NCBI GenBank assembly: GCA_028288725.1
Contig: JAQGIC010000101.1
Span: forward strand, 1 to 64,000
Source of the DNA: Rhodospirillales bacterium
Lineage (GTDB): Bacteria; Pseudomonadota; Alphaproteobacteria; ATCC43930; CGMCC-115725
DNA: 64,000 bases
Direction of reading: 5' to 3'
Shown here: piece by piece, positions 32,997-45,156 of the stretch
Layout: each line of letters begins with the position of its first letter
Position numbering within the stretch: position 1 is the first letter of the stretch
The notes under the pieces: generated by a model
Seen by the model: the letters and a program-made list of their open reading frames with translations, nothing else
What the model was told of the DNA's origin: nothing
The model's database searches: none
Position numbers and translations under genes: made by a program

Positions 32997-34175
32997 TCAG
33001 GGTGCCGTAGCGGCCGCCGGCGGTGTCACGGCGGCCAGCTCGACCGTATCGCCAGTGCGCAGGGTCTCAGGCGGGCTGTCGATCACCCGGTCCTGCGGAG
33101 TGAGGCCCGCCGTCACCTCGACGCTGTCACCGAAATCGCGGCCGAGTTGAACGGACTTGAGCACCACTTTATTGCCGTCGCCAAGAACTGCGACCTGCAC
33201 GCCGCGGTTGACCGGCATTAACGCCGTGGCCGGCAGGCGCACCATGTTGGGGTCGCCAGGAATCTGGAAATCGACCCGGCAATACGCGCCACCAAGAAGC
33301 TTGCCATCGGAATTGTCGCCCTGCAGCTCAACCAGCAGGCTGCGCGACGTCGTATCCAGCGCCCTCGACATGGTGACGAGGGTCGCGTCGAATTTCCGGC
33401 CCGGATATTGCGGCATTTCGAAGGTTGCCTTCAAACCCGGACTGAGATCGGCTGAGAATGCCTGCGGAACCTGGACGTAGATTCGGACCCGACGGAGATC
33501 CGAAACCTCGAACAGCTCTTGTCCGGCCGTGCTGCCGGCGTTGATCAGGGCGCCAATATCCGTATTGCGCAGGGTGACGACGCCATCGAAGGGTGCAACG
33601 ATCTGCTTGAAGGATTGCAACGCCTCCAGTTGCCGCACATTCGCTTCGGTGGCGTCCATCACCGCCTTCTTCGCTGCTGTATCGGCGGCACTCTGGTCCG
33701 CGGTCTGTTGGGATACGTTCTGGTTCTTGACGAGAATGGCGTAGCGATTGGCGGTGAGGGCGGCGATATCGTAGTTGGCTTTGGCGCTTGCCAGCGTTGC
33801 TCTGACCTGGGCGAGCTGTTGGTCGAGATCGGGGGCTTCGATCGAAGCCAGCACCTGACCGGCCACTACATTCGCTCCGATATCCTGCTGCCAAGACTTG
33901 AGATAGCCGTTTACCCGCGCATAGATCGCCGCCTTTGCATAGGGTTGGATGTCGCCGGGCAGTATAAGACGCTGCTCGGCATCGCCGCGCGCGAGTTTGG
34001 CGAGCGCCACGGTCGGGGGCGCTTGGGCGGCCGCCCACTGCCCCAGCTCCTGCTTGCTGCGGGAGCGGTTCATGAGGCCATTTGCAGCGATAGCGCCGGC
34101 AGCGACGAGGCCGATTATGACGACCAGGATCAGGCGGCGAGGCTTCGGCGGCTTGACGGGTTGCGAGGACATCAT
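32997..34175 (-). CDS. Efflux RND transporter periplasmic adaptor (MFP) subunit
   Basis: N-terminal anchor; coiled-coil hairpin EAPDLDQQLAQVRATLASAKANYDIAALTANRYAIL...EANVRQLEALQSFKQIVAPFDGVV; beta-barrel and MP domains. Confidence 0.9.
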   Translation of the reverse strand: MMSSQPVKPPKPRRLILVVIIGLVAAGAIAANGLMNRSRSKQELGQWAAAQAPPTVALAKLARGDAEQRLILPGDIQPYAKAAIYARVNGYLKSWQQDIGANVVAGQVLASIEAPDLDQQLAQVRATLASAKANYDIAALTANRYAILVKNQNVSQQTADQSAADTAAKKAVMDATEANVRQLEALQSFKQIVAPFDGVVTLRNTDIGALINAGSTAGQELFEVSDLRRVRIYVQVPQAFSADLSPGLKATFEMPQYPGRKFDATLVTMSRALDTTSRSLLVELQGDNSDGKLLGGAYCRVDFQIPGDPNMVRLPATALMPVNRGVQVAVLGDGNKVVLKSVQLGRDFGDSVEVTAGLTPQDRVIDSPPETLRTGDTVELAAVTPPAAATAP

Positions 34176-34178
34176 GCG

Positions 34179-37100
34179 CTAGGCCTGGGTTGGATGCGTG
34201 GGCGCCGATACCGCGTCCGTACTGTTGCGATCTCGAGCGTGAACAACGGAGAACATTATCGGCACCAGGAACAGCGTTGCGCAGGTCGCAAACAGCAGGC
34301 CGCCGATGACCGCGCGGCCGAGCGGAGCATTTTGTCCAGGTTCGATCGCCATCGGCGCCATGCCGATGATCATCGCGAGCGCCGTCATCAGCACGGGCCG
34401 GAACCGGGTGCTGCCGGCATCGAGAGCCGACGTCAGCGCGTCGGCGCCAGCCGCCAGACGCTCACTCGCGAAGCTGATAATCAGAATGCTGTTTGCGGTG
34501 GCGACGCCCATGCACATGATGGCGCCGGTCAGTGCCGGGACGGAGAGCGTCGTGTCGGTCGTGAAAAGGATCCAGACGATGCCGGCAAGGGCGGTTGGCA
34601 GCGCCATGACGATCACGAACGGGTCGAGCCAGGACTGAAAATTGACGACGATCAGCAGGTAGATCAGCACGATGGCGAAGGCGAGGCCGACGAAGAGTTG
34701 CTGATAAGCGCTGGTCATGGTCGTCACCTGACCCCGCAGCACGACGCTGGCGCCGTTCGGTACATCGTGAGCGGTGTTCTGGATCACCTGCTGGATGTCG
34801 GCCGCCACACCGCCCAGATCGCGTCCTTGCGGCGTCGCATAGATATCGATGACGGGGCGGACGTTGTAATGCGAAACGACCGCGTTGCTCGGCGTCCGTT
34901 GGATCGTGGCGAGGCCGCCCAGCAGCTGCCCACCCGGGCCGACGCTGGTCGTTACCGGTATGTTTCTCAACCCGCTCATTGTGCCGAGGTCACGCTGCGG
35001 CGTTTGGATCGACACCGGATAGGACACGCCGGTCGTCGGGTTCAGCCAGTAGGTCGGCGAGGTCTGCGAGCTGCCGGCCAGCGTGGTCTGCATCGCGGTC
35101 GCTGCGTCCTTCTCGCTGAGACCAACCAGCCCGGCCAGCGAACGGTCGACCTTGACGCTCAATGTCGGCTGCTGGAAAGCCTGCTGGATCCGCGCATCGG
35201 CGATCCCGGGGATCTGTTTAATCCCGGCCAACAGTGCGTTGGCATATATCCTATCCGCCTGTAAATTATTGCCGACCACCTGCAGGTCGATCGGCGCGGG
35301 CACGCCGAAATTCAGGATCTGGCTGGCAATGTCGGCCGGCAGGAAGGCGAAGGACGCGCCGGGAAACTGGCGCGGCAACTGCTCGCGCATCGTCTTGACA
35401 TAGTCCGCCGTCGGCGCGTGGTTCTGCTTGAGGCTGATCAGGACATCGGCATCAGCGACGCCGATCGTCCCCGAGTTGTTGTATGCCATGTTGATGCCGC
35501 TGACGCTGAGACCGATATTGTCGACGATGCCGCCCAGCTCGTCGGCCGGAATGATCTTGTGGATCGCCTCGCCGATCCGGTCGGCGAGCTTGGTGGTTTC
35601 CTCGACCCGCGTACCGGTCTGGGCCCGCACATGCATCTTGATCTGCCCGCCATCCACGCTCGGAAAGAAGTCCTGCCCCAGAAAGGGGGCAAGCCCGAAC
35701 GACAGCAGGGTAAAGCCCATGAACCCGGCGATCAGCTTGGCGCGATTGCGTAGACCGAGGCCGAGCAGACCGCTATAGGCGATGCGGATCGCCTCGAAAT
35801 GGTGCTCGAAGCCCTGCTGGAATCGCACCAGCGGATTGCGGCTGGGGATCGCCGGAGCGGAATTTGGATCGCCGTTCGTGGCGTGATGCGCCGCATGCGC
35901 TTGATCGCGCAGAAGGTAATTGGCCAATGTGGGGACGAGCGTGCGCGACAGAACGTAGGATGCGATCAGCGCAAAGACTACCGCTTCTGCGAGAGGCTGG
36001 AACAGATAACCGGCGACACCGCCCAATCCGAACATCGGCACGAACGCGATGCAAATGCACATCAGCGACACGGTAGCCGGGACGACGATTTGACGGGCTC
36101 CGTCCAAAATTGCGGTCTCGATCTCCTTGCCGTGTTCGAGATGCCAATTGATGTTCTCGATGGTCACCGTCGCGTCATCGACCAGGATGCCGACGGCGAG
36201 CGCCAGCCCGCCGAGCGTCATGACGTTGATCGTCTCGCCGAGCAGCGAGAGCGTCGCCACCGACGCCAGGATGGCGAGCGGGATCGAAATCGTGATGATC
36301 AGCGTCGAGCGCCAGCTGCCGAGGAACAGCAGGATCATGGCACCGGTGAGAGCGGCGGCGATTGCGCCTTCGCGGATCACGCCGGATACGGCACTGATAA
36401 CGAACACCGACTGATCGCCGACCGCGGCGAGGTTCAGGTTCGCCGGCAGGGTCTTGGCGACGCTCGGCAGCAGCGCCTTGATGCCGGAGATGATCGCCAG
36501 TGTAGAGGTCGAGCCCGCTTTCACCACAGCCAACAGCACTGCGCTCTTGCCGTCGACGTGGACGACGTTGGTCTGCGGCGGGCTGCCGTCATGGACATAG
36601 GCGACGTCGCGCATATAGATGACCGCGCCGTTGACGGTCTTGATCGGCAGCTCGTTAAAAGCGGTGATTTCGCTGGGCGAATTGTTCAGATTCACGGTGT
36701 ATTCGAACGTGCCTATCTTCTGGGTCCCGACCGGCGTGATCAGGTTCTCGATCGACAGGGCGTTGACGACGTCGTTCGCGGAGATGCCGTAGGTGTGCAG
36801 CGCCTGCTGGTTGAGGTCGGCCTGGACCTGCCGGACCTTGCCGCCATAGGGCAGCGGGATCGCGGCGCCGGCGACCGAGGCCAATTGCGGACGGATGAAG
36901 CTGGTCGCTTGATCGAACAAAGTCGTCTCGGAGAGCTTGTCGCTCGACAGGACAAGCTGCAGGATCGGCACACTGGATGCATCGAAGCTCAGGATCAGTG
37001 GCGGCGTGATGCCGGCCGGCATCAGCTTCAGCACCGTTTGCGACATCGCGGAGACCTCCGCCAGCGCCGCATTGATGTTCACGGTCGGCTGGAAGAAGAT

Positions 37101-37382
37101 CTTGATGATCCCGTAGTTCGGAATCGACTGGGATTCGATGTGCTCGATGTCGTTGACGCTGGTGGTGAGCGAGCGCTCGTAGAACGTGACGATACGGCCC
37201 GCCATGTCGTCGGGCGGCAGCCCGGTGTAGCTGAAGACGACGCTGATCACCGGAATATTGGTGTTCGGGAAGATGTCGGTCGGGGTGCGCAGCGCCGATG
37301 AGACGCCGAAGATCAGGATCAGCAACGCCATGACGACGAAGGTGTACGGCCGCCGAAGCGCGAGCGTTACGATGCCAATCAT
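34179..37382 (-). CDS. Efflux RND transporter permease (AcrB/HAE1-like)
   Basis: 1067 aa with the 12-TM RND architecture. MIGIVTLALRRPYTFVVMALLILIFG, two large periplasmic loops, LAVGILVDDATVTIENI. Confidence 0.9.
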   Translation of the reverse strand: MIGIVTLALRRPYTFVVMALLILIFGVSSALRTPTDIFPNTNIPVISVVFSYTGLPPDDMAGRIVTFYERSLTTSVNDIEHIESQSIPNYGIIKIFFQPTVNINAALAEVSAMSQTVLKLMPAGITPPLILSFDASSVPILQLVLSSDKLSETTLFDQATSFIRPQLASVAGAAIPLPYGGKVRQVQADLNQQALHTYGISANDVVNALSIENLITPVGTQKIGTFEYTVNLNNSPSEITAFNELPIKTVNGAVIYMRDVAYVHDGSPPQTNVVHVDGKSAVLLAVVKAGSTSTLAIISGIKALLPSVAKTLPANLNLAAVGDQSVFVISAVSGVIREGAIAAALTGAMILLFLGSWRSTLIITISIPLAILASVATLSLLGETINVMTLGGLALAVGILVDDATVTIENINWHLEHGKEIETAILDGARQIVVPATVSLMCICIAFVPMFGLGGVAGYLFQPLAEAVVFALIASYVLSRTLVPTLANYLLRDQAHAAHHATNGDPNSAPAIPSRNPLVRFQQGFEHHFEAIRIAYSGLLGLGLRNRAKLIAGFMGFTLLSFGLAPFLGQDFFPSVDGGQIKMHVRAQTGTRVEETTKLADRIGEAIHKIIPADELGGIVDNIGLSVSGINMAYNNSGTIGVADADVLISLKQNHAPTADYVKTMREQLPRQFPGASFAFLPADIASQILNFGVPAPIDLQVVGNNLQADRIYANALLAGIKQIPGIADARIQQAFQQPTLSVKVDRSLAGLVGLSEKDAATAMQTTLAGSSQTSPTYWLNPTTGVSYPVSIQTPQRDLGTMSGLRNIPVTTSVGPGGQLLGGLATIQRTPSNAVVSHYNVRPVIDIYATPQGRDLGGVAADIQQVIQNTAHDVPNGASVVLRGQVTTMTSAYQQLFVGLAFAIVLIYLLIVVNFQSWLDPFVIVMALPTALAGIVWILFTTDTTLSVPALTGAIMCMGVATANSILIISFASERLAAGADALTSALDAGSTRFRPVLMTALAMIIGMAPMAIEPGQNAPLGRAVIGGLLFATCATLFLVPIMFSVVHARDRNSTDAVSAPTHPTQA

Positions 37383-37765: not shown

Positions 37766-39265
37766 TTACCTGAAGTGCTGCACCGCTTTTGAAATCGCCG
37801 CCAGCTTGTCCTGCGCCGAGCTGCTGCAGCAAATGGGATTGTCGGCAAAAGTGGCGAATCCGCAGTCCGGATGCAGCAGCACGCGGCTGCGTCCAAAAAG
37901 TCCGATCGCGCTTGCGATGCGCGCGATCACGTCATCAACGGCCTCAACCCGGGCGTACTTCTGGTTGACCACGCCAACCCCAATGCGGGCGTCGTCCGGA
38001 AGCCCCTTCAGCACGTCCATCCCACCGGCGCGCGGCGTGCACATTTCAAGCAGATAGGCGCCGACCCGGACCTGCGCCAAGGTCGGGATCAGCGGTCCAT
38101 AGCTGCCCGAGAGCGCGACGCTCTCGTCCGGGGTCCAGTTGCCGCGGCACACGTGTAGCGCCGTGCGCTCGCGCGGGGCGCCGTCGAGCACGGCATTGAG
38201 CAAATCGCGGGCGAAGCCGAGCTCGTGCTCGGGCTCGAGCGATTCCGATAAGGCGCCGCACATGAAGCTGCGCTTGTTCTTAGCGCCGGAGAAGACGACT
38301 TCGGAAAGCACCGGCTCATCGAACTGGACGAGAGCCGCTCCCGCATCCATCAGTTCCGCCAGTTCTTCGCGCAGCACACGAACGATGTCCTCGGCCAGCG
38401 CTTCGCGGCTCGCGTAGGCTTGGTCGGATATGCACTCCATCCACATGGTGCGGGTGAGCAGATACGGACCGGGCAGCGCCACCTTGACCGGCTTGGCGGT
38501 TACACTGCGCGCGAAGTCGACCTCGTGGGCGACGAGCGGGCGCGAGCGCTTCAGCGGGCCGAATACAGCAGGATGGCGCACTTCGCCCGCCGGGATATCG
38601 AGCGCGCGCAGCTCGGCCTCGAATTCCTCGGGATGGTCCACCAGCGGCAGCAGGTCGATAAGGGGAATGAGCTGGCAATTGTCGAGCCGGCTGGCCACGA
38701 AGCTTGCATAGCTGTCGCGCCGCTGCTCGCCGTCGGTCACCACGTCGACGCCCGCCTTCTCCTGAGCGGCTATGGCGAGGCGCGTCGCATCGTCGGCGGT
38801 ATCGTGGAAGGCGCGTTCCGGCAGGCGGCCTTCCATATGGGCGTGCATGGCCTCGATCATCCAGCGGGGCCGCGGCCAGGAGCCGATGCCCATCACCGCG
38901 AGTTCCGGGATCGGCGGGGCCGCCATCGGCTCTCTGCGCCGGGTCGGCTCGGCGGGTGCAACGGCCATCGGTGCGGCGGGAGCGGCGGCCGCCGTCTCGC
39001 GCTCGGCGAGCGCGCCTTTGCAGACCAGAAAGCTGCGCTGGCCGCCGAGCTTGGTCCAGGAGACGAGTTCGTTCCGGGTCAGCCGGCACCAGGCGGGGAG
39101 GTCTTCGTCGATGGAAATTTCCGAGGACAGGATCTCCAGCAGCCCCCCACGCGGTAGCGGGTCGATGTGCTTGCGGATCAGCAGCAGCAAACCATTGCCG
39201 CAATCGAGGTCGCCGCCGTCAAAGGAGACGTCCGGGACGAGCGCATGGCGGTCGGTGGGATTCAT
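37766..39265 (-). CDS. Fusion protein: N-terminal TusA-like sulfur-carrier domain + cobalamin-independent methionine-synthase-like (MetE C-terminal / Meth_synt_2) domain
   Basis: ATG at 39265 (MNPTDRH). Res ~15-85 GGDLDCGNGLLLLIRKHIDPLPRGGLLEILSSEISIDEDLPAWCRLTRNELVSW align with the TusA pattern. An Ala/Pro linker follows. The MetE-like barrel has candidate Zn/thiol ligands in LHVCRGN (His, Cys), LLEMC (Glu) and HPDCGF (Cys). Confidence 0.75.
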   Translation of the reverse strand: MNPTDRHALVPDVSFDGGDLDCGNGLLLLIRKHIDPLPRGGLLEILSSEISIDEDLPAWCRLTRNELVSWTKLGGQRSFLVCKGALAERETAAAAPAAPMAVAPAEPTRRREPMAAPPIPELAVMGIGSWPRPRWMIEAMHAHMEGRLPERAFHDTADDATRLAIAAQEKAGVDVVTDGEQRRDSYASFVASRLDNCQLIPLIDLLPLVDHPEEFEAELRALDIPAGEVRHPAVFGPLKRSRPLVAHEVDFARSVTAKPVKVALPGPYLLTRTMWMECISDQAYASREALAEDIVRVLREELAELMDAGAALVQFDEPVLSEVVFSGAKNKRSFMCGALSESLEPEHELGFARDLLNAVLDGAPRERTALHVCRGNWTPDESVALSGSYGPLIPTLAQVRVGAYLLEMCTPRAGGMDVLKGLPDDARIGVGVVNQKYARVEAVDDVIARIASAIGLFGRSRVLLHPDCGFATFADNPICCSSSAQDKLAAISKAVQHFR

Positions 39266-39395
39266 GGCGTCGTATCCGTATCGAGTGCGGCCGGCCCGCC
39301 GCCGCCCGCCTGCTTGCCATAGAGGCGCACAAACGCCCCCTCCTCGAAATGTTTCGCCTGGTGCAGGCTGCACAGGTGCGCGGCCATGCCTGCAC

Positions 39396-39758
39396 TCAGT
39401 AGCTGATGCTGGGCGCGCCTTCGCCCATGAACTCCACGAGCTTGGCGCCGCCCACGATCTTCGCGCCGTCGACAAGGTTGTTCTCGTCGAGGCCGCGCTT
39501 CTTGAAGCAGGGCGAGCAGACATAGATGACCCCGCCGCCGGCGGCGAAGTTCGCCATCAGTTCCTTGAGCGGCGCGAAGCCTTCCTCATGGATTTCGTCC
39601 GCATAGCCCCGTTGTGAGAGGCGTGTACCCTCGATCGAGAGGAAGATGATCGTCTCCTTGTCCGAGGCGACGGCGGCATTGGCGACGACGAAGGCGACGG
39701 TGGCCTTGTCGGTGTCGTTCTTGGCGCAGCTCAGCGATACGACGAACTTTCCAGGCAT
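39396..39758 (-). CDS. DsrE/DsrF-like sulfur-relay family protein
   Basis: 120 aa. KFVVSLSCAKNDTDKATVAFVVANAA...IIFLSIEGT...VIYVCSPCFKKRG fits the DsrE-family fold pattern with conserved Cys residues. Confidence 0.75.
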   Translation of the reverse strand: MPGKFVVSLSCAKNDTDKATVAFVVANAAVASDKETIIFLSIEGTRLSQRGYADEIHEEGFAPLKELMANFAAGGGVIYVCSPCFKKRGLDENNLVDGAKIVGGAKLVEFMGEGAPSISY

Positions 39759-39791
39759 CAGGGTTCTCCTTCGTTAGGCCGGGCGTGTGGT

Positions 39792-40040
39792 TCAGGACCA
39801 ATCCATCCGTGAACGGATCCAGTAGCTGTGGGTCTGCGGCTCGTGGCTGACGAGTTCGTTGCGGGTCATGCGGCACCAGGCAGGCAGATCCTCCGGCGCG
39901 CCGGAATCCAGGGCGATGACGCGCAGCACCTCGCCGGGCATCGCCTTGAGCCGGATGCGCAGCAGCATCACCAACTCGCCGCAGCCCATGTGGCCGGCCT
40001 CCCAGGTTTCCGGTTCCCGCGTAGGCGTCATTGCTTTCAT
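39792..40040 (-). CDS. TusA-like sulfur-carrier protein (variant active-site motif)
   Basis: MKAMTPTREPETWEAGHMGCGELVMLLRIRLKAMPGEVLRVIALDSGAPEDLPAWCRMTRNELVSHEP is colinear with E. coli TusA (LGLRCPEPVMMVRK...[21 protein letters not shown]). The start could also be 40109. Confidence 0.7.
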   Translation of the reverse strand: MKAMTPTREPETWEAGHMGCGELVMLLRIRLKAMPGEVLRVIALDSGAPEDLPAWCRMTRNELVSHEPQTHSYWIRSRMDWS

Positions 40041-40383
40041 GCCAATCGCGTCGTCGAGTAAAAATGCCGCGCCCCCAGCTATCGAGGCCGGGACGCAAGC
40101 ATGATGCATGTGGAGAATGGAGCGGTGGTCGGGCAGAAAACGTCCGCGAATTTCACGGCAGCAAGCCAGCCCTCACGGGGCATGACGTATGACCTAGACC
40201 ACTCAACGTCACCATAGGTAAGAGGCTGAGCAGGAGTCAAGCTGTCGGGCAGCAACCTTGCATGCCCGCGCCGCCGCGCAACAGTCCGCGCAGCGAGCGC
40301 TCCAAACGTGGCGTCAGCACGGACGATGAAGGCAGCCGCCTGTCCCTTATCCGTCCGAATACCAAGCTCCGATAAGCCCGGAG

Positions 40384-41232
40384 CTAGCGGCTGTGTGCCT
40401 GGGCCGTGCCGTTAACCATGCCGAGACTGGCAGCGTCCAGGGACGTGTCCAGAGAGAGGGCAGTCAACTCATAAGCCCGGCGAAAATCATCCATGTGCTT
40501 ATGCATCCAGGTGCGGGCACCGGCCGGGTCGCCGGCGGCGAGGCAGTTGTAGATGTAGCGGTGGGCGTCGAATACGCGCCGATAGGTCTTGAGCCGCGGC
40601 AGGATGATCCGGCCGGCCGGGATGAACAAGGAGGTCACCGGTTCATGGGCGAGCGCCATCACCCGATTGCCGCAGACATTGGCCAGTATTTCATGGAACG
40701 CCCGGTCGAGCGCGACGAAGCCGTACACGTCGGCCGGCGCGCCGCTATCGATGCGCGCGACTTCGGCCTCCATGGCGTCGAGGTTGCGGGACAGTTCGCC
40801 CAGGCCCTTCTCGTCGATATGCCCGGCCGCCCGCTCGGCGATGGCGGGCTCGAGCACCATCGAGGCCTCCCATAATTCCCGAAACGTCACCATGTGCAGG
40901 ATCAACGCGCGACTGGCCGACGAGGCGAGATCCAGGTAGTGCGGCATCGAGATACGGGGCCGTTTTCCGCCGTCGCGCTCGACCAGGCCGCTCTGCTCCA
41001 ACAGCCGGATCCCCTCGCGCACCGTCGACCGGTTGACCCCGAACTGCTCGGCCAACTGCAATTCCGCCGGCAGCGGATCACCGACGCGCAGGCGCCCCGC
41101 CAGAATCTCCCGTTCTATGGCGTCATAGACCAGACGATAGGCCGGCGCGCGCTCGATCCGGCTGAATCCATGTTCCTGCACGACCGGTCCTTGGCTGCTT
41201 CTGTGGATTGGCAAGTTAGCTCTTTCTGCCAC
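40384..41232 (-). CDS. GntR-family (FadR/FCD subfamily) transcriptional regulator
   Basis: wHTH YRLVYDAIEREILAGRLRVGDPLPAELQLAEQFGVNRSTVREGIRLLEQSGLV plus an all-helical FCD-like C-terminal domain. GTG at 41232 is the most upstream start; the true start is uncertain. Confidence 0.85.
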   Translation of the reverse strand: MAERANLPIHRSSQGPVVQEHGFSRIERAPAYRLVYDAIEREILAGRLRVGDPLPAELQLAEQFGVNRSTVREGIRLLEQSGLVERDGGKRPRISMPHYLDLASSASRALILHMVTFRELWEASMVLEPAIAERAAGHIDEKGLGELSRNLDAMEAEVARIDSGAPADVYGFVALDRAFHEILANVCGNRVMALAHEPVTSLFIPAGRIILPRLKTYRRVFDAHRYIYNCLAAGDPAGARTWMHKHMDDFRRAYELTALSLDTSLDAASLGMVNGTAQAHSR

Positions 41233-41269
41233 CGCTCGCCGCTCTCTTGACGGCGCCGTCGCCGATGAT

Positions 41270-41302
41270 ACAGTGTTTGAAACTGTCCGACAAACGGACT
41301 GT
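41270..41302. promoter_or_regulatory. Interrupted inverted repeat in the GntR / crotonase divergent region (operator candidate)
   Basis: ACAGTGTTTG-N11-CAAACggACTGT. The ACAGT/ACTGT and GTTTG/CAAAC arms were read directly. Lies about 30 nt upstream of the proposed crotonase GTG. Confidence 0.3.
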
Positions 41303-41330
41303 TGGCCCGTATGAGGCCGGGAGGAAGCGC

Positions 41331-42128
41331 GTGGGCGAGGCGATTGGCGAGGCCAATGTCACGGTCGGTTCGGAGGGCCCTATCGCCCGTCTGACCTTGA
41401 CGCGTGCCGACAAGCTCAATCCGCTGGACTGGGCGACGGTGCGCGAACTGAAGGATGCCGTCGCCGCGATCGAGGCGAAGTCGGAGGTTTACGCCGTCAT
41501 CATCACCGGCCGGGGGCGGAGCTTTTCGGCGGGCGGAGATCTCGACGGCTACATCGGTCTCTATCGCCAGCCGGAAAAATTCGCGCTCTTCCTCGACGAT
41601 TTCCATCGGATGCTCGGCGCCATCGAAGCGTCGTCCAAGATCTATATCGCCGCCATCAACGGCGTCTGCGTCGCAGGCGGCTTGGAACTGCTGCTGGCCT
41701 GCGATCTCGTCGTCGCAGCCGCGTCCGCGAAGATCGGCGATGGCCACCTGAATTTCGGCCAACTGCCGGGCGCGGGAGGCTCGCAACGGCTGCCGCGTGC
41801 GGTCGGCCTGTTGCGCGCAAAGCACCTGATGCTGACTGGCGACCTATTGAGCGCGGAGCAGGCGCAGCAGATCGGTCTGGTCAACGAAGTGGTGGCCGAT
41901 GGCGAGCTGGAGGCCGCGGTGACGGCGCTCGCGACACGTCTCGGCGACAAGAGCCGCGTCGGGTTGCGCGGGGCAAAACACCTCGCGAACCTGACGCTGA
42001 CGACCGACCTCGAAACCGGTCTCAAACGGGAAATCGACTTCGTCCACCGCTATGCGACGACCCAGCGCGATGCGACCGAAGGGCTGGTCGCGTTCAAGGA
42101 AAAGCGCCGCCCGGTGTTCTCGAGCTGA
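41331..42128 (+). CDS. Enoyl-CoA hydratase/isomerase (crotonase) family protein
   Basis: ARLTLTRADKLNPL, ITGRGRSFSAGGDL, AAINGVCVAGGLELLLACD. GTG at 41331 lies 6 nt after GGGAGGAAG; the track ORF begins at 41247. Confidence 0.85.
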   Translation: MGEAIGEANVTVGSEGPIARLTLTRADKLNPLDWATVRELKDAVAAIEAKSEVYAVIITGRGRSFSAGGDLDGYIGLYRQPEKFALFLDDFHRMLGAIEASSKIYIAAINGVCVAGGLELLLACDLVVAAASAKIGDGHLNFGQLPGAGGSQRLPRAVGLLRAKHLMLTGDLLSAEQAQQIGLVNEVVADGELEAAVTALATRLGDKSRVGLRGAKHLANLTLTTDLETGLKREIDFVHRYATTQRDATEGLVAFKEKRRPVFSS

Positions 42129-42146
42129 TCGAAGGAAGCAACCTCC

Positions 42147-43304
42147 ATGTACTCGCTGCGGGATAAATACGCGATCGCCGGCATCGGCTGCACGGCGTTC
42201 TCGAAGAACTCGGGCCGGACGGTGCGCAGCCTCGCCTCGGAGGCCAGCCTCGCGGCCATCAACGATGCCGGCTTGAAGGTCGCGGACGTGGACGGGTTCG
42301 TGAGCTTCAATTTCAATGATTCGGTCCCGGCGATCTCGGTCGCGACCGAGATCGGCGTGCCCGACGTCCGCTACGCCAATGATTTCCTGAGCGGCGGCAA
42401 TGCCGCCAACATGATCGTGCTGACGGCCGCGGCCGTCATCGAGGCGGGACTGGCCGAGACGGTCGTGTGCTATCGCGCGATGAACGGCCGATCCGGCTTC
42501 CGTCTGGGCGGCGGCAGGGACCTGTCGGCCCATGGCATCACGCAATTCACCGCGCCGTTCGGCTGGATCACCTATCCCCAGGCGATGGCGATGTGGTGCC
42601 GTCGGCATATGATCGAATACGGCACGACCGCCGAACAGCTGGGTGAGATCGCCGTGACGTTCCGCGGCAATGCGGTCGACAATCCGCGCGCGATGCAGCG
42701 CGAGCCGATCACGCTCGACGATTATATGGCGTCGCGGATGATCGTCGATCCGTTCCGCATGCTCGACATCTGCCTGGAAACCGATGGTGCCTGCGCGGTC
42801 GTCGTGACGAAGGCCGAGCGGGCGCGTGATCTGAGGCACAAGCCGGTCTATATCGCCGGCGGCGCCTACGGCGGCGGCCCGAACCAGGGCGAAGACCTGT
42901 TCGATGCGCTTCGCTGGCCCGACCATTCGCATAATTACGCAAAATACATCGCCGACGATCTTTGGCGCAGCGCCGGGATGGGCCCGGCGGACATCGACAT
43001 GGCCCAGATCTACGACTGCTTCACCTATAGCGTCCTCATGCAGCTCGAAGGGCTCGGGTTCTGCAAGGAGGGCGAAGGCGGATCGTTCATCGGCGGCGGC
43101 CGCATCGCCCGCGACGGCCCGCTGCCGCTCAATACCCACGGCGGCCTGCTCTCGGAAGGCTACATCCATGGGCTCAATCACGTGCTCGAGGCGGTCCAGC
43201 AGCTGCGGGGCGATGCCGGCCCCCGGCAGGTGCCCGGTGTCGAAACCTGTCTGACGACGGCCGGCGCAATGACGTGCGGCAGCGCCATGGTGCTGAGGAG
43301 CTGA
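42147..43304 (+). CDS. Thiolase-like (SCP-x / lipid-transfer type) protein, DUF35-partnered
   Basis: AIAGIGCTAFSKNSGRT, NTHGGLLSEGYIHGLNHVLEAVQQLRG (thiolase-fold C-terminal half). Immediately followed by a DUF35 gene. Confidence 0.8.
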   Translation: MYSLRDKYAIAGIGCTAFSKNSGRTVRSLASEASLAAINDAGLKVADVDGFVSFNFNDSVPAISVATEIGVPDVRYANDFLSGGNAANMIVLTAAAVIEAGLAETVVCYRAMNGRSGFRLGGGRDLSAHGITQFTAPFGWITYPQAMAMWCRRHMIEYGTTAEQLGEIAVTFRGNAVDNPRAMQREPITLDDYMASRMIVDPFRMLDICLETDGACAVVVTKAERARDLRHKPVYIAGGAYGGGPNQGEDLFDALRWPDHSHNYAKYIADDLWRSAGMGPADIDMAQIYDCFTYSVLMQLEGLGFCKEGEGGSFIGGGRIARDGPLPLNTHGGLLSEGYIHGLNHVLEAVQQLRGDAGPRQVPGVETCLTTAGAMTCGSAMVLRS

Positions 43305-43306
43305 GA

Positions 43307-43723
43307 ATGAGCTATGCAAAGCCGCTACCGGTCCCCGACGTCGAGACCCGGCCGTTCTGGGATGGCTGCCGCGAAGGCAAGCTGCTGCTGCAGCGCTGCA
43401 CCGACTGCGGCCACAAACGGTTCCCGCCGACGCACTTCTGTCCGAACTGTCGCTCGGCCGGGCAGGAATGGGTCGAGAGTAGCGGCCATGGCCGCGTATT
43501 CAGCTGGATCGTGGTGCGCCACCCGGTCCCGCGCGACATCTATGCCGGCGAGGTGCCCTATGTCGTCGCCCTGGTGACGTTGGACGAGGGCGTGCGCATC
43601 GCCACCAACATCATCGGCTGCGCGCCGGAGGCGGTGACCGCGGACATGCCGGTCCGGGTCACGTTCCGCGAAGCGACACCGGAAATCACGCTCCCCCTGT
43701 TCGAACCGGCACCGGCATCATGA
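43307..43723 (+). CDS. Zn-ribbon + OB-fold protein (DUF35 family)
   Basis: FWDGCREGKLLLQRCTDCGHKRFPPTHFCPNCRS (rubredoxin-like CxxC...CxxC) followed by the OB-fold YVVALVTLDEGVRIATNI. SD GAGGAG precedes the ATG at 43307. Confidence 0.85.
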   Translation: MSYAKPLPVPDVETRPFWDGCREGKLLLQRCTDCGHKRFPPTHFCPNCRSAGQEWVESSGHGRVFSWIVVRHPVPRDIYAGEVPYVVALVTLDEGVRIATNIIGCAPEAVTADMPVRVTFREATPEITLPLFEPAPAS

Positions 43724-45156
43724 TGAATCCCGGTTCGCAAGACGCGGCACTGCGCGACGCGCGACAGGTTCCCTTCATGGAATCGTCGCGGCTCGCCAGC
43801 TTGGCTGCGTTGTCGCGAACCGAACTCGAAGCGCTGCAGCTTCAGAAGCTGCGCCGTCAGCTGACGCGGCTCCATCGGACGAGCGCCTATTATCGCCGCC
43901 GCATGGACGATGCGCATATCGAGCCGGAGAACCTCCGCTCGCTTGACCTGTTCTTCGATCGCTTCCCGTTCTCGACCAAGGCCGATTTCCTGACCGACCA
44001 GACTGCCTATCCGCCCTTCGGCGAGCGGCTGGGCATCGATCGGCGGCAGGTGGCGCTGGTCAATATGACGGGCGGCACGTCGGGCCAGGGGCAGGAGATC
44101 TACGGCCGCAGCCAGCACGACGTGCATATGCAGGGCTACCTGCACGCGCTGCCCTGGTTCCTGGCCGGTCTGCGTGCCGGCGACCTCGCCATCAATTGCG
44201 TGCCGGCGGGCGGCATGACCACGGGCGGCTGGGGACCGGGCGAAGGCCTGCGCATCATCGGCGCGACGGCATTCCACGTCGGCGGCTCGCTCTCGACCGA
44301 CGCGAAGATCGATCTGATGCTGAAGATCGGCGAGGTCAATTTCATCTACGCCTCGACCAACTATCTTCACACGCTGACCGAAGCCCTGATGCGCCGGGGA
44401 CTGGAGCCGGCCCAGGCGTTTCCGACCCTGCGCACCCTGTTCATCGCCGCCGAGGGCTACCCGATCGAATGGGCCGAGCGGATCGAGGCCCTGTGGGGCT
44501 GCCGGCTGCAGGAGGGCTACGGCAGCACTCAGTGCGCGGGCTTCGGCGCATCGACCTGCGCGGACGGCGCCCTGTCGGCGACGGGCGGCCGCGGGCTCAT
44601 GTCCCTGTTCGAGTGGGAAAGCTTGATAGAGGTGCTGGATCCGGTGACGCTGAAGCCGGTGGCGTCCGGCGAAATGGGCGAAATGGTGGTGACCAATCTG
44701 TCGATCGAAGGGTCGCCGGTGATCCGGTTCCGAACGGGCGACGCAGCCCGTTTCGTCTCGTATCGCGACACCGCTTCGGGACGCGCCTGGAATGCCATAG
44801 AATGCGGCACGATCGGCCGGTTCGACGATATGATGAAGATCCGCGGCAACAACGTATGGCCATCGGCGGTCGATGCCGCGGTGTTCTCGCACGGCGAGAT
44901 CGTCGAATATGCCGGCCGGGTCTTTACGAGCGTCGACGGCAAGACCGAAGTCGAAGTGCGCCTGGCGCTGTCCGAAAGCGTCGCCTCCTGCGACCCGGAT
45001 GCCTGCCGGCAGCTTATCGAAAGGGTTCGGACCTCGATCAAGGAACGAACGAACGTCTGGATGACGGCGGTCGTCTGCGCCCGCAGCGAACTGCCGGAGT
45101 TCAGTTACAAAGCTCGCCGCTGGATGGACGAGCGACAACAAGGCTATCGCCTATAG
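43720..45156 (+). CDS. Phenylacetate-CoA ligase-like adenylate-forming enzyme (PaaK / F390 synthetase family)
   Basis: NMTGGTSGQGQEIYG (P-loop-like AMP motif), EGYGSTQC, FRTGDAARF, MMKIRGNNVWP (the family-typical KxRG). ATGATGA overlap with the DUF35 stop. Confidence 0.8.
   Translation: MMNPGSQDAALRDARQVPFMESSRLASLAALSRTELEALQLQKLRRQLTRLHRTSAYYRRRMDDAHIEPENLRSLDLFFDRFPFSTKADFLTDQTAYPPFGERLGIDRRQVALVNMTGGTSGQGQEIYGRSQHDVHMQGYLHALPWFLAGLRAGDLAINCVPAGGMTTGGWGPGEGLRIIGATAFHVGGSLSTDAKIDLMLKIGEVNFIYASTNYLHTLTEALMRRGLEPAQAFPTLRTLFIAAEGYPIEWAERIEALWGCRLQEGYGSTQCAGFGASTCADGALSATGGRGLMSLFEWESLIEVLDPVTLKPVASGEMGEMVVTNLSIEGSPVIRFRTGDAARFVSYRDTASGRAWNAIECGTIGRFDDMMKIRGNNVWPSAVDAAVFSHGEIVEYAGRVFTSVDGKTEVEVRLALSESVASCDPDACRQLIERVRTSIKERTNVWMTAVVCARSELPEFSYKARRWMDERQQGYRL

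What the first reader, a model, noticed from the sequence alone, without database searches (positions are those of the whole stretch)
37766..40383. TusA-like / DsrE-like / TusA::MetE-like fusion: a sulfur-carrier relay coupled to a Zn-thiol methyltransferase-type barrel
Three co-directional genes encode (i) a free TusA-like protein, (ii) a DsrE-family protein with a VCSPC motif, and (iii) a 499-aa fusion. The fusion joins a second TusA-like domain through an Ala/Pro-rich linker to a cobalamin-independent methionine-synthase-type (MetE C-terminal) domain. That domain appears to retain the His/Cys/Glu/Cys Zn site used to activate a thiol (LHVCRGN, LLEMC, HPDCGF). DsrE3-type proteins and TusA are established persulfide/thiosulfonate relay partners in sulfur oxidisers. 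MetE-type barrels alkylate a Zn-bound thiolate. Covalent fusion of the carrier to the barrel suggests the acceptor or donor sulfur arrives protein-bound, not as free homocysteine. The cluster has no dsr, shdr, sox or met neighbours; a GntR regulator lies upstream on the same strand. I do not know a characterised pathway with this arrangement. Possibilities include S-methylation of a carrier persulfide or a carrier-dependent thiol biosynthetic step.
Basis: partly seen in the sequence, partly recalled or inferred. Interest (0 to 1): 0.7.

Follow-up and report, generated by a model that had tools for sequence, protein, structure and literature searches.

The report
TusA–DsrE–TusA::MetE-like operon, selenium-linked
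Three co-directional genes encode two small cysteine-based carrier proteins and a carrier fused to a zinc enzyme of the methionine-synthase type; this uncharacterised trio is conserved in many Proteobacteria and in other genomes sits repeatedly beside selenocysteine-machinery genes, so it probably traffics selenium, not only sulfur.

Summary
On the minus strand lie a TusA-like gene (39792-40040), a DsrE-like gene with an invariant VCSPC motif (39396-39758) and a 499-aa fusion (37766-39265). The fusion joins a TusA domain through an Ala/Pro linker to a single MetE-type barrel. All four MetE zinc ligands and the three homocysteine-binding residues map one-to-one onto E. coli MetE and are invariant in the family.

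The fusion is a sharply separate, highly conserved family: 60-86% identity across Alpha-, Beta- and Gammaproteobacteria, but about 25% to the nearest core methionine synthases. It passes no curated methionine-synthase cut-off. DsrE lies directly upstream in 109 of 111 classifiable loci. Interchangeable envelope modules are often inserted between DsrE and the fusion.

No dsr, shdr or met neighbours recur; one related locus has soxYZ beyond an integrase gene. What does recur, in about ten independent arrangements, is selD, selA, selB or UGA-containing formate dehydrogenase genes, sometimes in operon-like positions.

My best reading (about 0.5) is a cysteine-based relay that captures selenium and presents it, protein-bound, to the zinc site for hand-over towards SelD. 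The actual reaction is unknown. I found no publication or curated family for this system. The window itself carries no sel gene.

The parts
40384..41232 (-). GntR/FCD-family transcription regulator upstream on the same strand. Its link to the operon is uncertain, because it is not a conserved partner in other genomes.
   Evidence: PF00392 at 66.7 bits and PF07729 at 86.3 bits. Other loci carry TetR or LysR genes at this position.
40211..40240 (-). Sigma-70-like promoter match (TTGACT-18-TATGGT) in the intergenic region between the GntR gene and the TusA-like gene (343 nt from the GntR stop to the favoured ATG at 40040).
   Evidence: One search found one site, against 0.6 expected in shuffles, so the evidence is weak.
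39792..40040 (-). Free TusA-like carrier, 82 aa counted from the ATG at 40040 (the ORF extends to 40109). The active-site Cys lies in a GCGEL motif and a second Cys in DLPAWC.
   Evidence: PF01206 at 36.3 bits against a 28.6 cut-off. It is 36% identical to E. coli TusA, with Cys19 and Cys56 aligned. Both Cys are invariant in 53 homologues.
39396..39758 (-). DsrE-like protein, 120 aa, with an invariant C81-S-P-C84 motif and a good Shine-Dalgarno sequence (AAGGAG) upstream.
   Evidence: PF02635 at 52.4 bits. C81 aligns to the Cys of PDB 3mc3. C81 and C84 are invariant in 116 sequences. The gene lies directly upstream of the fusion, or of the inserted envelope module, in 109 of 111 classifiable loci.
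39266..39395 (-). Structured 130-nt spacer between dsrE and the fusion gene. It occupies the position where other genomes carry the C4-C2 or phnDEC-like genes.
   Evidence: Folds to -67.3 kcal/mol with z = -3.0. It has no T-run terminator.
39011..39265 (-). Fusion residues 1-85: a TusA-like domain with an invariant FDGGDLDC22GNGLLLLIR motif and DLPAWC60. The C22 codon is at 39202-39200.
   Evidence: Alignment to E. coli TusA, conservation, and the TusA-type succession of strands and helices in the AlphaFold2 model.
38903..39010 (-). Fusion residues 86-121: an Ala/Pro-rich flexible linker, a plausible swinging arm.
   Evidence: Mean pLDDT is 34-43 over residues 91-110, and the segment is not conserved within the family.
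37766..38902 (-). Fusion residues 122-499 plus the stop codon: a single MetE-type (beta/alpha)8 barrel. The zinc ligands are H371 (38155-38153), C373 (38149-38147), E407 (38047-38045) and C468 (37864-37862). The amino-acid pocket residues are S129, E180 and D316. Family-specific conserved cysteines are C197, C278, C336 (invariant), C409 and C479 (93-97%).
   Evidence: PF01717 at 94.3 bits. Foldseek gives TM 0.79 to PDB 3rpd. Residues map onto E. coli MetE. Invariance is shown.

Best explanation
The three genes are the minimal form of a widespread, uncharacterised cysteine-based chalcogen relay. Its most likely cargo is selenium, on its way to selenophosphate synthetase (SelD) and selenocysteine synthesis.

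**Proposed mechanism (every chemical step is inferred):**
1. Selenium enters through a separate envelope module, or arrives from a cysteine desulfurase or selenocysteine lyase. In other genomes the envelope module is one of three kinds: a PhnD-type ABC importer (suited to pyramidal oxyanions such as selenite), the C4-C2 membrane pair, or a porin with a periplasmic transglutaminase-like protein. This window has none next to the operon.
2. The DsrE-like protein captures the selenium on its invariant CxxC pair, as a selenotrisulfide or perselenide.
3. Selenium passes to the free TusA-like carrier and then to the TusA domain of the fusion.
4. The flexible linker lets that domain swing its loaded Cys22 into the MetE-type barrel. 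There the zinc site (H371, C373, E407, C468) binds the terminal selenium.
5. The family-specific conserved cysteines (C197, C278, C336, C409, C479), and/or thioredoxin with its reductase, resolve the S-Se bond. Selenide is then handed to SelD, or to an amino-acid-like acceptor held by the retained S129/E180/D316 pocket.

**What is shown:** the anatomy, the conservation, the intact zinc and pocket residues, and the genomic association.

**What is not shown:** the cargo and the reaction.
For: **Intact catalytic residues.** All zinc ligands and homocysteine-contact residues of E. coli MetE are matched and invariant. The MetE barrel fold is confirmed.

**Retained carrier cysteines.** The cysteines of both TusA copies and the DsrE CxxC pair are invariant.

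**Conserved core.** TusA, DsrE and the fusion co-occur in nearly all of about 160 loci. The median DsrE-to-fusion gap is 39 nt in 67 loci that lack both C2 and a phnD-like gene.

**Envelope modules at one position.** Interchangeable modules sit between DsrE and the fusion, which points to an imported substrate:
- C4-C2
- a PhnD/E/C-like ABC system, with a TonB-dependent receptor in some genomes
- a porin with a transglutaminase-like protein

**Selenium genes within 10 kb, checked against curated models.**
- Paracoccus species: selA (565 bits against a 268 cut-off) and trxB follow the fusion directly, with a divergent SufS gene.
- L030: selD starts 128 nt downstream, and selB and selA are nearby.
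- Hyphomicrobium L046 and L072: selB and/or selA, plus a SelD-type gene.
- L043: selB.
- L097: selD at 524 bits.
- L115: a UGA-containing selD two genes downstream on the same strand.
- L173, L004, L145 and L044: FdnG-type formate dehydrogenase genes with an in-frame TGA, at the NQARI-U-HGPTV motif in L173.

**Enrichment (my estimate, an inference).** The flanks total about 1.78 Mb. Assuming a 5-Mb genome with three sel genes in 40% of genomes, chance would give roughly 0.4 sel genes. At least ten non-redundant ones are seen.

**Other supporting points.**
- NifS- or SufS-type desulfurases, which in other bacteria also act as selenocysteine lyases (established knowledge), lie in or beside the operon in several lineages.
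- A TusA plus CxxC-DsrE pair mirrors the domain content of the selenium-associated YedF protein (PMC5322559).
- Thioredoxin and its reductase take part in selenite assimilation in Pseudomonas stutzeri (PMC8538045, abstract only, listed).
Against: - The 64-kb window holds no selA, selB, selD or UGA-type formate dehydrogenase gene. For this copy the selenium link rests only on homology.
- About 90% of related loci show no selenium gene within reach. I could not test whether genomes with the fusion also carry selD.
- The DsrE-like protein does not match the YedF model TIGR03527.
- The PhnD-like binding protein scores better as PhnD (163 bits) than as the putative selenate binder TIGR04553 (86 bits).
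- One locus has soxYZ and rhodanese nearby, and sulfur and selenium chemistry cannot be told apart from sequence.
- The fully retained MetE catalytic set argues for a true alkyl-transfer reaction, which my hand-over model does not use.
- No Sec-for-Cys variants of any component were found.
Confidence: 0.5

Rival explanations
1. Sulfur-only relay with S-alkylation. A persulfide on the fused TusA domain is activated at the zinc site and alkylated or methylated. The product would be a methyl-persulfide or methanethiol, or, with another electrophile, a new small-molecule thiol.
For: - The MetE catalytic residues are intact.
- TusA and DsrE are established persulfide carriers (PMC4175335, PMC11094781, listed).
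- Cysteine desulfurases lie in or near the operon.
- The unfused Chloroflexi relatives sit beside rhodanese, OsmC and, twice, a ComA/Lyase_1/PALP (coenzyme-M-type) cluster. That would suit carrier-dependent thiol formation.
Against: - No methyl-donor genes (corrinoid proteins, MesX/DUF1852, folate enzymes) appear in about 160 neighbourhoods, and no recurrent sulfur-metabolism genes.
- This model does not explain the recurrent sel and selenoprotein neighbours, or the uptake modules.
- The proteins are not depleted in Cys and Met, as sulfur-starvation proteins usually are (read directly from the sequence).
Confidence: 0.2
2. Selenium (or tellurium) detoxification by methylation. The barrel methylates a TusA-bound perselenide to give methylselenol or dimethyl diselenide, which leaves the cell.
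For: - It shares the selenium association above.
- The MetE chemistry is a methyl transfer to a zinc-bound chalcogenide.
- An RND efflux pump follows the operon in the window, and an RND adaptor gene lies a few genes downstream of the fusion in Nitrospirillum.
- Bacteria that volatilise selenium include P. stutzeri (literature listed).
Against: - Operon-like linkage to selD and selA suggests supply, not disposal.
- Import-type modules (a TonB-dependent receptor and an ABC importer) suit scavenging of a scarce nutrient.
- No methyl donor is evident.
- Known bacterial selenium methyltransferases are SAM-dependent enzymes of other folds (established knowledge).
Confidence: 0.12
3. A genuine core methionine synthase that methylates free homocysteine from an unknown donor. 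In this model the TusA domain and its partners only protect or repair the oxidation-sensitive zinc-thiolate site.
For: - The homocysteine-binding residues S129, E180 and D316 and the zinc ligands are all retained.
- The best curated hits are archaeal and core methionine synthases.
- Core MetE families with unknown donors exist (PMC7857596).
Against: - It scores far below every equivalog cut-off (158 against 406; 85 against 541).
- It is only about 25% identical to MesD-type enzymes.
- There is no riboswitch, and no recurrent met, MesX or corrinoid neighbours in the neighbourhood survey.
- The strict coupling to DsrE, TusA and envelope modules would be unexplained.
Confidence: 0.08
4. A thiophilic metal or metalloid handling system (Hg, As, Cu or Zn), in which the Cys-rich proteins bind a metal instead of a chalcogen.
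For: - C4 has MerT/MerC-like membrane cysteines, and C2 has an invariant CPTGH motif.
- CxxC-type DsrE-like proteins occur in a proposed organometallic system (bioRxiv 10.1101/2022.07.06.499078).
- From established knowledge, not retested here: the PhnD family includes an arsenite binder (AioX).
Against: - No mer, ars or cop genes recur nearby.
- The sel gene association is not explained.
- C4 and C2 match no metal-transport family.
Confidence: 0.05

Closest known systems
Core (single-barrel) cobalamin-independent methionine synthases, MesA-MesD / core-MetE (PDB 3rpd; PMC7857596, PMC7005905)
   Same: A single MetE C-terminal-type barrel without the folate-binding N-terminal barrel, the same His/Cys/Glu/Cys zinc site and homocysteine-contact residues, and a structural match of TM 0.79.
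   Different: - About 25% identity, and below all curated cut-offs.
- Three family-specific insertions that carry extra invariant cysteines.
- An N-terminal TusA domain.
- Partners are DsrE and TusA, not corrinoid proteins or MesX.
TusA/DsrE (TusBCD, DsrEFH, DsrE3) persulfide or thiosulfonate relays (PMC4175335, PMC11094781)
   Same: A small TusA carrier with the Cys19-equivalent cysteine next to a DsrE-fold protein with the conserved active-site Cys.
   Different: - There are no DsrF/H or TusC/B partners, and no dsr or shdr genes; sox genes appear near only one of about 160 related loci.
- The TusA motif is CG(N/E)(G/L), not CPxP.
- The DsrE-like protein has a CxxC pair.
- The terminal acceptor is a MetE-type zinc barrel, which is not known for any such relay.
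YedE/YedF, the predicted selenium transporter plus a TusA-DsrE(CGxC) fusion protein linked to SelD by comparative genomics (PMC5322559)
   Same: A transporter together with a TusA-like and a CxxC-bearing DsrE-like module, found beside selenium-utilisation genes.
   Different: - Here TusA and DsrE are separate genes and do not match TIGR03527.
- The transport modules are unrelated to YedE.
- A third component, the TusA::MetE-like fusion, has no counterpart.
Algal 'MetE-fusion' proteins: a PP-binding carrier domain, a MetE-type barrel and a CzcO-like oxidoreductase (PMC10861871)
   Same: A swinging-arm carrier domain fused to a single MetE-type barrel with an intact zinc site. The methyl donor is unknown.
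   Different: The carrier is a phosphopantetheine domain, not TusA. The proteins are eukaryotic, respond to B12 limitation and are read as methionine synthases. There is no DsrE partner and no link to selenium.
Epoxyalkane:coenzyme M transferase (2-hydroxypropyl-CoM lyase)
   Same: A MetE-superfamily zinc enzyme that alkylates a thiol other than homocysteine (established knowledge). One database record names a fusion homologue this way. Unfused Chloroflexi relatives lie beside ComA-type genes.
   Different: I made no direct sequence comparison. The proteobacterial operons have no coenzyme M or alkene-oxidation genes nearby.

Membership tests
TusA (PF01206) | Sequence match above the curated Pfam cut-off | tested here: met
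   The free protein scores 36.3 bits against 28.6. The fused domain scores only 21.8 bits, below the cut-off, but it aligns to E. coli TusA with E = 7e-9.
TusA (PF01206) | Active-site cysteine equivalent to E. coli Cys19 | tested here: met
   Aligned and invariant in both copies: C22 in the fusion, and the Cys of the GCGEL motif in the free protein.
TusA (PF01206) | CPxP motif around the active cysteine | tested here: not met
   The motif is CGNG in the fusion and CGEL in the free protein. A canonical CPHV TusA is an extra gene in L173 and L042.
TusA (PF01206) | Accepts a persulfide from a cysteine desulfurase | not testable with these tools
   Desulfurase genes are adjacent in some lineages only.
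DsrE/TusD family (PF02635) | Sequence match above the cut-off and a conserved active-site Cys | tested here: met
   52.4 bits against 22.7. C81 aligns with the Cys of PDB 3mc3 and is invariant.
DsrEFH / TusBCD heterohexamer | Adjacent DsrF/TusC and DsrH/TusB subunit genes | tested here: not met
   No such genes are in the window or in related loci.
DsrE3-type thiosulfonate carrier of sHdr systems | Association with shdr and lbpA genes, and thiosulfonate binding | tested here: not met
   No shdr genes appear in any locus. A GcvH-like gene occurs in one locus only. Binding cannot be tested here.
MetE, EC 2.1.1.14 | Two barrels: an N-terminal folate/polyglutamate-binding barrel plus the catalytic barrel | tested here: not met
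   Only one barrel is present (residues 122-499). The PF08267 hit is a weak echo (21.9 bits against 27) inside the catalytic barrel.
MetE, EC 2.1.1.14 | His/Cys/Glu/Cys zinc ligands | tested here: met
   H371, C373, E407 and C468 correspond to H641, C643, E665 and C726 of E. coli MetE and are invariant.
MetE, EC 2.1.1.14 | Homocysteine-contact residues (E. coli S433, E484, D599) | tested here: met
   S129, E180 and D316 are aligned and invariant.
MetE, EC 2.1.1.14 | Curated equivalog score | tested here: not met
   PRK05222 gives 85 bits against 541, and TIGR01371 gives 78 against 930. The DIHSP segment of MetE reads NQKYA here.
Core methionine synthases MesA-MesD | Curated score and the characteristic partner (corrinoid protein or MesX/DUF1852) | tested here: not met
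   The best score is PRK04326 at 158 bits against 406. No such partners occur in about 160 neighbourhoods. Identity to MesD-type proteins is about 25%.
YedF selenium-metabolism protein (TIGR03527) | A single protein with a TusA-like domain and a CGxC DsrE-like domain that matches the curated model | tested here: not met
   The two domains are separate genes, and neither hits TIGR03527 at E <= 0.01.

The most novel reading that the evidence does not exclude
This operon is the dedicated selenium-delivery pathway to SelD that has long been postulated for aerobic bacteria. A MetE-type zinc site has been recruited to handle a protein-bound perselenide, brought in by a fused TusA swinging arm. It does this either by reductive release of selenide or by making a C-Se bond. 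The enzymology is new, and the pathway comes with previously unrecognised envelope components for selenium uptake (C4-C2, a PhnD-type importer, or a porin with a transglutaminase-like protein).
Probability: 0.3. Interest if true: 0.9.

Novelty: new variant of a known kind. Interest (0 to 1): 0.75.

Why it matters
How bacteria pick trace selenium out of a vast excess of sulfur, and deliver it safely to selenophosphate synthetase, is an old open question. Free selenide is toxic and reacts with oxygen, and SelD works poorly on it at physiological levels.

A conserved, genetically tractable operon that sits beside selD, selA, selB and selenoprotein genes would make this question directly testable. 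The operon occurs in Pseudomonas stutzeri, Paracoccus versutus and Xanthobacter.

Whatever the cargo, a MetE-type zinc barrel fed by a covalently tethered cysteine carrier would be a new use of this enzyme fold.

There is also a practical annotation point. Thousands of database entries now named '5-methyltetrahydropteroyltriglutamate--homocysteine methyltransferase' are probably misnamed. C2, and its membrane partner C4, are unrecognised protein families, and C2 appears to be confined to this system.

Tried and rejected
- **Riboswitch or other RNA control.** No Rfam family reaches threshold anywhere in the window.
- **Literature searches.** I searched for TusA/DsrE/MetE fusions, folate-independent methionine synthases, selD neighbourhoods, selenium delivery and selenium volatilisation. 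None describes this system. The algal 'MetE-fusion' is a different architecture.
- **Identifying C4 and C2.** Pfam, NCBIfam, PDB sequence profiles and Foldseek give nothing, beyond a weak DUF1608 S-layer-domain resemblance for C2.
- **Selenocysteine variants.** I looked for in-frame TGA codons aligned to Cys in TusA, DsrE, C4, C2 or the fusion. None was found; the two stops seen are not at Cys positions.
- **A false positive removed.** The 'selB' hit in L077 is EF-Tu beside fusA.
- **A qualification.** The SelD-like genes of L046, L072 and L122 pass the selD model TIGR00476. The L122 gene is the C-terminal part of a 747-aa oxidoreductase fusion, and all three also match the SelD-like half of TIGR04369 ('fusion_not_SelD'). 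I therefore count L122 as weak.
- **Annotated plasmid record.** The Paracoccus versutus record had no features. The P. ferrooxidans record did.
- **tRNA 2-thiouridine or 2-selenouridine modification.** I considered and rejected this role, because the envelope or uptake modules and the zinc barrel have no place in that pathway.
- **Comparison with epoxyalkane:CoM transferase.** I did not have the sequence, so this was not done.

Full report
**1. What is in the window.**

The minus strand between 41232 and 37766 carries four co-directional genes.

- **GntR regulator:** the GntR/FCD gene (40384-41232) is followed by an intergenic region of 343 nt up to the favoured ATG. That region contains one weak sigma-70-like match at 40240-40211.
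- **TusA-like gene:** its ORF runs 39792-40109. Comparison with homologues favours the ATG at 40040, giving 82 aa. It passes the Pfam TusA cut-off (36.3 bits against 28.6).
- **DsrE-like gene:** 33 nt further on, behind an AAGGAG ribosome-binding site, lies a 120-aa DsrE-like gene at 39396-39758 (52.4 bits against 22.7).
- **Fusion gene:** after a 130-nt spacer comes the 499-aa fusion at 37766-39265. The mechanical ORF extends upstream to 39523, but the family starts at the MNPTDRH methionine.

**2. The fusion protein.**

Residues 1-85 align with E. coli TusA (E = 7e-9). The active-site Cys19 matches C22 and Cys56 matches C60. The free TusA-like protein aligns in the same way and is a 43%-identical paralogue of the fused domain. 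Both carry CG-type motifs (CGNG and CGEL) in place of the canonical CPxP.

Residues 86-121 are Ala/Pro-rich and not conserved. Mean pLDDT is 34-43 over residues 91-110, so this stretch is probably a flexible tether.

Residues 122-499 form a MetE-type barrel:
- PF01717 scores 94.3 bits.
- Foldseek's best matches are all cobalamin-independent methionine synthases, with TM 0.79 when normalised to the single-barrel enzyme 3rpd.

An alignment that includes E. coli MetE, fetched from MG1655, gives these equivalences:

| E. coli MetE | Fusion | Role |
|---|---|---|
| S433 | S129 | homocysteine contact |
| E484 | E180 | homocysteine contact |
| D599 | D316 | homocysteine contact |
| H641 | H371 | zinc ligand |
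| C643 | C373 | zinc ligand |
| E665 | E407 | zinc ligand |
| C726 | C468 | zinc ligand |

All seven residues are invariant in 35 and in 75 family members. The barrel is thus not a degenerate copy.

It is also not a standard methionine synthase:
- The folate-binding N-terminal barrel is missing.
- The DIHSP segment of MetE reads NQKYA.
- Three family-specific insertions (about 196-225, 322-345 and 376-386) carry invariant residues, and there are extra conserved cysteines: C197, C278 and C336, with C409 and C479 at 93-97%.
- Every curated methionine-synthase model is missed by a wide margin. The best is PRK04326 at 158 bits against a cut-off of 406.

**3. A distinct, widespread family.**

More than 6,500 database proteins match the fusion. 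The best 120 are all fusions of about 500 aa with 72-86% identity. They come from Nitrospirillum, Bosea, Xanthobacter, Ancylobacter, Azorhizobium, Paracoccus, Bordetella, Pigmentiphaga, Pseudomonas stutzeri and many metagenomes. They are named only as MetE, 'hypothetical', or once '2-hydroxypropyl-CoM lyase'.

In the plasmid and chromid collection, three Paracoccus records match at 60-80% identity and everything else is below 60%. In the sample listed, the non-Paracoccus hits (MesD-type and other 'methionine synthases') are at 21-27%.

An exhaustive search of cluster representatives found more divergent fusions at 47-59% identity. One of them has lost the zinc ligands. It also found unfused relatives of about 390 aa at 32-43% identity.

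**4. Conserved neighbourhood.**

I fetched 80 genome loci and 80 metagenome loci. I called genes with a GC3 filter, clustered them and checked the result with tblastn.

The fusion is accompanied by the DsrE-like gene in 143 of 165 loci and by the free TusA-like gene in 148 of 165. Most of the exceptions are truncated contigs.

| Arrangement upstream of the fusion (111 classifiable loci) | Loci |
|---|---|
| DsrE directly upstream: the minimal form, as in this window | 42 |
| DsrE, then C4 and C2 | 38 |
| DsrE, then a PhnD/PhnE/PhnC-like ABC system | 24 |
| DsrE, then both modules | 5 |
| No DsrE | 2 |

In 67 loci that lack both C2 and a phnD-like gene, the median DsrE-to-fusion distance is 39 nt. 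This supports co-transcription in general. The window's 130-nt spacer is at the long end. It folds stably (z = -3.0) and has no terminator-like T-run.

- **C4** is about 180 aa, with an estimated four membrane helices and four invariant cysteines, including a CxxC pair inside a helix.
- **C2** is about 520 aa, with a signal sequence, a confidently predicted all-beta body, an invariant CPTGH motif and a C-terminal anchor.
- Neither has a Pfam, NCBIfam or PDB relative. C2 has only 187 homologues among 5.8 billion proteins, and some proteins of about 708 aa appear to be C4-C2 fusions.
- **A TonB-dependent receptor** precedes the operon in Nitrospirillum.
- **A further variant** has a DcaP-like porin, one or two periplasmic transglutaminase-like proteins, and a TusA-like protein with a Cys-rich N-terminal extension.

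The regulators differ between genomes (GntR here, TetR in P. stutzeri, LysR elsewhere). The constant core is therefore TusA, DsrE and the fusion. The variable part looks like alternative ways of bringing something across the envelope.

**5. The unexpected neighbours.**

No dsr, shdr, met, corrinoid or MesX genes recur. One locus (L175) has soxYZ, a rhodanese and a thioredoxin beyond an integrase gene.

What does recur is selenium-utilisation genes. I checked the selA, selB and selD calls listed below against curated models.

| Locus or lineage | Selenium-related neighbours |
|---|---|
| Paracoccus ferrooxidans, versutus, aminovorans | selA follows the fusion after 78 nt (TIGR00474, 565 bits against 268); trxB overlaps selA; a SufS-family desulfurase is divergent from the TusA gene |
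| L030 (Bradyrhizobiaceae genome) | selD starts 128 nt after the fusion (505 bits against 299); selB and selA within 8 kb |
| L046, L072 (Hyphomicrobium) | selB (L046), selA, and a SelD-type gene |
| L043 (betaproteobacterial genome) | selB |
| L097 (metagenome contig) | selD (524 bits) |
| L115 (metagenome contig) | selD with an in-frame TGA at the CGG-U-ASK position, two genes downstream on the same strand |
| L173, L004 (Bosea), L145, L044 | FdnG-type formate dehydrogenase genes with an in-frame TGA (at the NQARI-U-HGPTV motif in L173); in L173 and L004 the gene is divergent from the operon |

L173 and L042 also begin the operon with a canonical CPxP TusA and a NifS-type class-V aminotransferase.

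I removed one false positive (EF-Tu in L077), and I count L122 as weak.

The flanks examined total about 1.78 Mb. Assume a 5-Mb genome with three sel genes in perhaps 40% of genomes; this is my assumption, not a measurement. Chance would then give about 0.4 sel genes, where at least ten non-redundant ones are seen, in about ten different arrangements. I regard the association as real.

It concerns a minority of loci. The window itself has no sel gene and no UGA-type formate dehydrogenase gene.

**6. Interpretation.**

The shown facts are:
- two cysteine carriers and a third carrier domain tethered to an intact zinc-thiolate barrel;
- strict co-occurrence of these three components;
- modular envelope components;
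- repeated linkage to selenocysteine machinery, thioredoxin reductase, and cysteine desulfurases or selenocysteine lyases.

From this I infer a selenium relay. Selenite reacts with thiol pairs to form selenotrisulfides (established chemistry). A dedicated CxxC protein such as this DsrE-like protein would capture selenium without the redox cycling seen with glutathione. TusA-type carriers could then pass it on as a perselenide.

The tethered TusA domain would present the selenium to the zinc site. Selenolates bind there far more readily than thiols at neutral pH, which is a possible basis for telling selenium from sulfur.

The extra conserved cysteines, or thioredoxin with its reductase, could supply the electrons to release selenide for SelD.

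The retained amino-acid pocket is not explained by this minimal model. It leaves room for a real alkyl- or chalcogen-transfer reaction to an amino-acid-like substrate, such as formation of selenohomocysteine or methylselenol. I put about 0.5 on the selenium-supply reading as a whole. I put much less on any particular chemical step.

**7. Rivals.**

- **Sulfur-only alkylation (0.2).** It remains viable because sequence cannot distinguish sulfur from selenium. Also, the unfused Chloroflexi relatives always sit beside OsmC, often beside rhodanese and CMD/AhpD-like genes, and twice beside a DUF7714-ComA cluster that in L086 continues with two Lyase_1 genes, a P450 and a PALP gene, typical of coenzyme M biosynthesis. 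This hints at carrier-dependent thiol chemistry in the sister clade.
- **Selenium detoxification by methylation (0.12).** This would use the MetE chemistry directly, but it fits poorly with importer modules and selD/selA operon linkage.
- **A plain core methionine synthase (0.08).** This is unlikely given the scores, the partners and the lack of any met context or riboswitch.
- **Metal handling (0.05).** This has only the cysteine motifs in its favour.

**8. Comparison with what is known.**

The barrel works like, and descends from, MetE and core-MetE. It fails the membership tests for MetE (no second barrel, sub-threshold scores) and for MesA-D (no partner genes, about 25% identity).

The carriers belong to the TusA and DsrE families by fold and active cysteine, but they differ in three ways:
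- TusA lacks the CPxP motif.
- The DsrE-like protein lacks the DsrF/H partners.
- There is no sHdr or Dsr context.

The nearest conceptual precedents are two. One is YedE/YedF, a predicted selenium transporter plus a TusA-DsrE(CGxC) protein, known only from comparative genomics (PMC5322559). The other is the algal PP-binding::MetE-type fusions (PMC10861871). Neither shares the architecture.

I found no paper and no curated family that covers this operon. Absence from the searched library is not proof of absence from the literature.

**9. Verdict.**

The finding is real, non-trivial and apparently uncharacterised. I file it as a new variant of a known kind: a cysteine-based chalcogen relay, here ending in a MetE-type zinc enzyme. 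There is a substantial chance that it is a dedicated selenium-delivery pathway with new enzymology. Interest is 0.75.

Noticed in passing
window 39266-39398 (-): The dsrE-fusion spacer (130 nt; 133 nt were folded, including the dsrE stop codon) folds into a long imperfect hairpin (-67.3 kcal/mol, z = -3.0). It lies exactly where other genomes carry the C4-C2 or phnDEC-like genes. It could be a deletion scar, an RNA-stability element or a regulatory element.
   Followed up: partly
L082 7878-9985; L016 5677-7862; alignments A1, A2, A4: C4 (about 180 aa, an estimated four membrane helices, four invariant Cys) and C2 (about 520 aa, all-beta, invariant CPTGH, C-terminal anchor) match nothing in Pfam, NCBIfam or PDB. 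C2 has only 187 homologues in 5.8 billion proteins, and some proteins of about 708 aa appear to be C4-C2 fusions.
   Followed up: partly
P0127 (representative search): A 503-aa relative of the fusion (47% identity) has all four zinc-ligand positions replaced, while keeping the TusA domain and its cysteine. It may be a non-catalytic offshoot.
   Followed up: no
L085, L086, L170, L171, L172: In five loci examined, unfused Chloroflexi relatives (about 42% identity) all lie beside OsmC, often beside a 268-aa rhodanese and CMD/AhpD-like genes. Twice they lie beside a DUF7714-ComA cluster; in L086 it continues with two Lyase_1 genes, a P450 and a PALP gene, resembling bacterial coenzyme M biosynthesis, and in L171 it runs off the end of the locus.
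   Followed up: partly
L115 8313-9359: The selD gene has an in-frame TGA at the position of the catalytic Cys/Sec (TTCGG-U-ASKLGP), so this SelD is a selenoprotein. It lies two genes downstream of the fusion.
   Followed up: yes
L173 1-1980 (-); also L004 3419-4201, L145 10661-11431, L044 12466-12873: FdnG-type formate dehydrogenase genes with an in-frame TGA (at NQARI-U-HGPTV in L173) lie next to the operon. In L173 the gene caller split the gene in two at the TGA.
   Followed up: yes
L173 2771-4211; L042 1042-2205: In L173 the operon begins with a canonical CPxP TusA followed by a NifS-type class-V aminotransferase, placed before the CG-type TusA. L042 carries a 97%-identical aminotransferase in the same position.
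   Followed up: partly
L115 1798-5213; L120; L136; L114: Another upstream module consists of a DcaP-like porin, one or two periplasmic transglutaminase-like proteins (PF01841), and a 223-aa TusA-like protein with a Cys-rich N-terminal extension.
   Followed up: partly
L030 10696-12360: GcvH-like (lipoyl carrier) and LplA-like lipoate ligase genes lie between selD and selB. They recall the LbpA/sLpl pairs of sHdr sulfur-oxidation systems. This was seen in one locus only.
   Followed up: no
window 32997-37382 (-): In the RND efflux system just downstream of the operon, the permease gene (34179-37382) precedes the membrane-fusion protein gene (32997-34175). This is the reverse of the usual order. 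An RND adaptor gene also lies a few genes downstream of the fusion in Nitrospirillum loci.
   Followed up: no
window 41247-45156 (+): A cluster divergent from the GntR gene encodes an enoyl-CoA hydratase, a thiolase-like protein, a ChsH2-type OB-fold/zinc-ribbon protein and an AMP-dependent ligase. This is a CoA-dependent side-chain degradation-type cluster, and it may be the real target of the GntR/FCD regulator.
   Followed up: no
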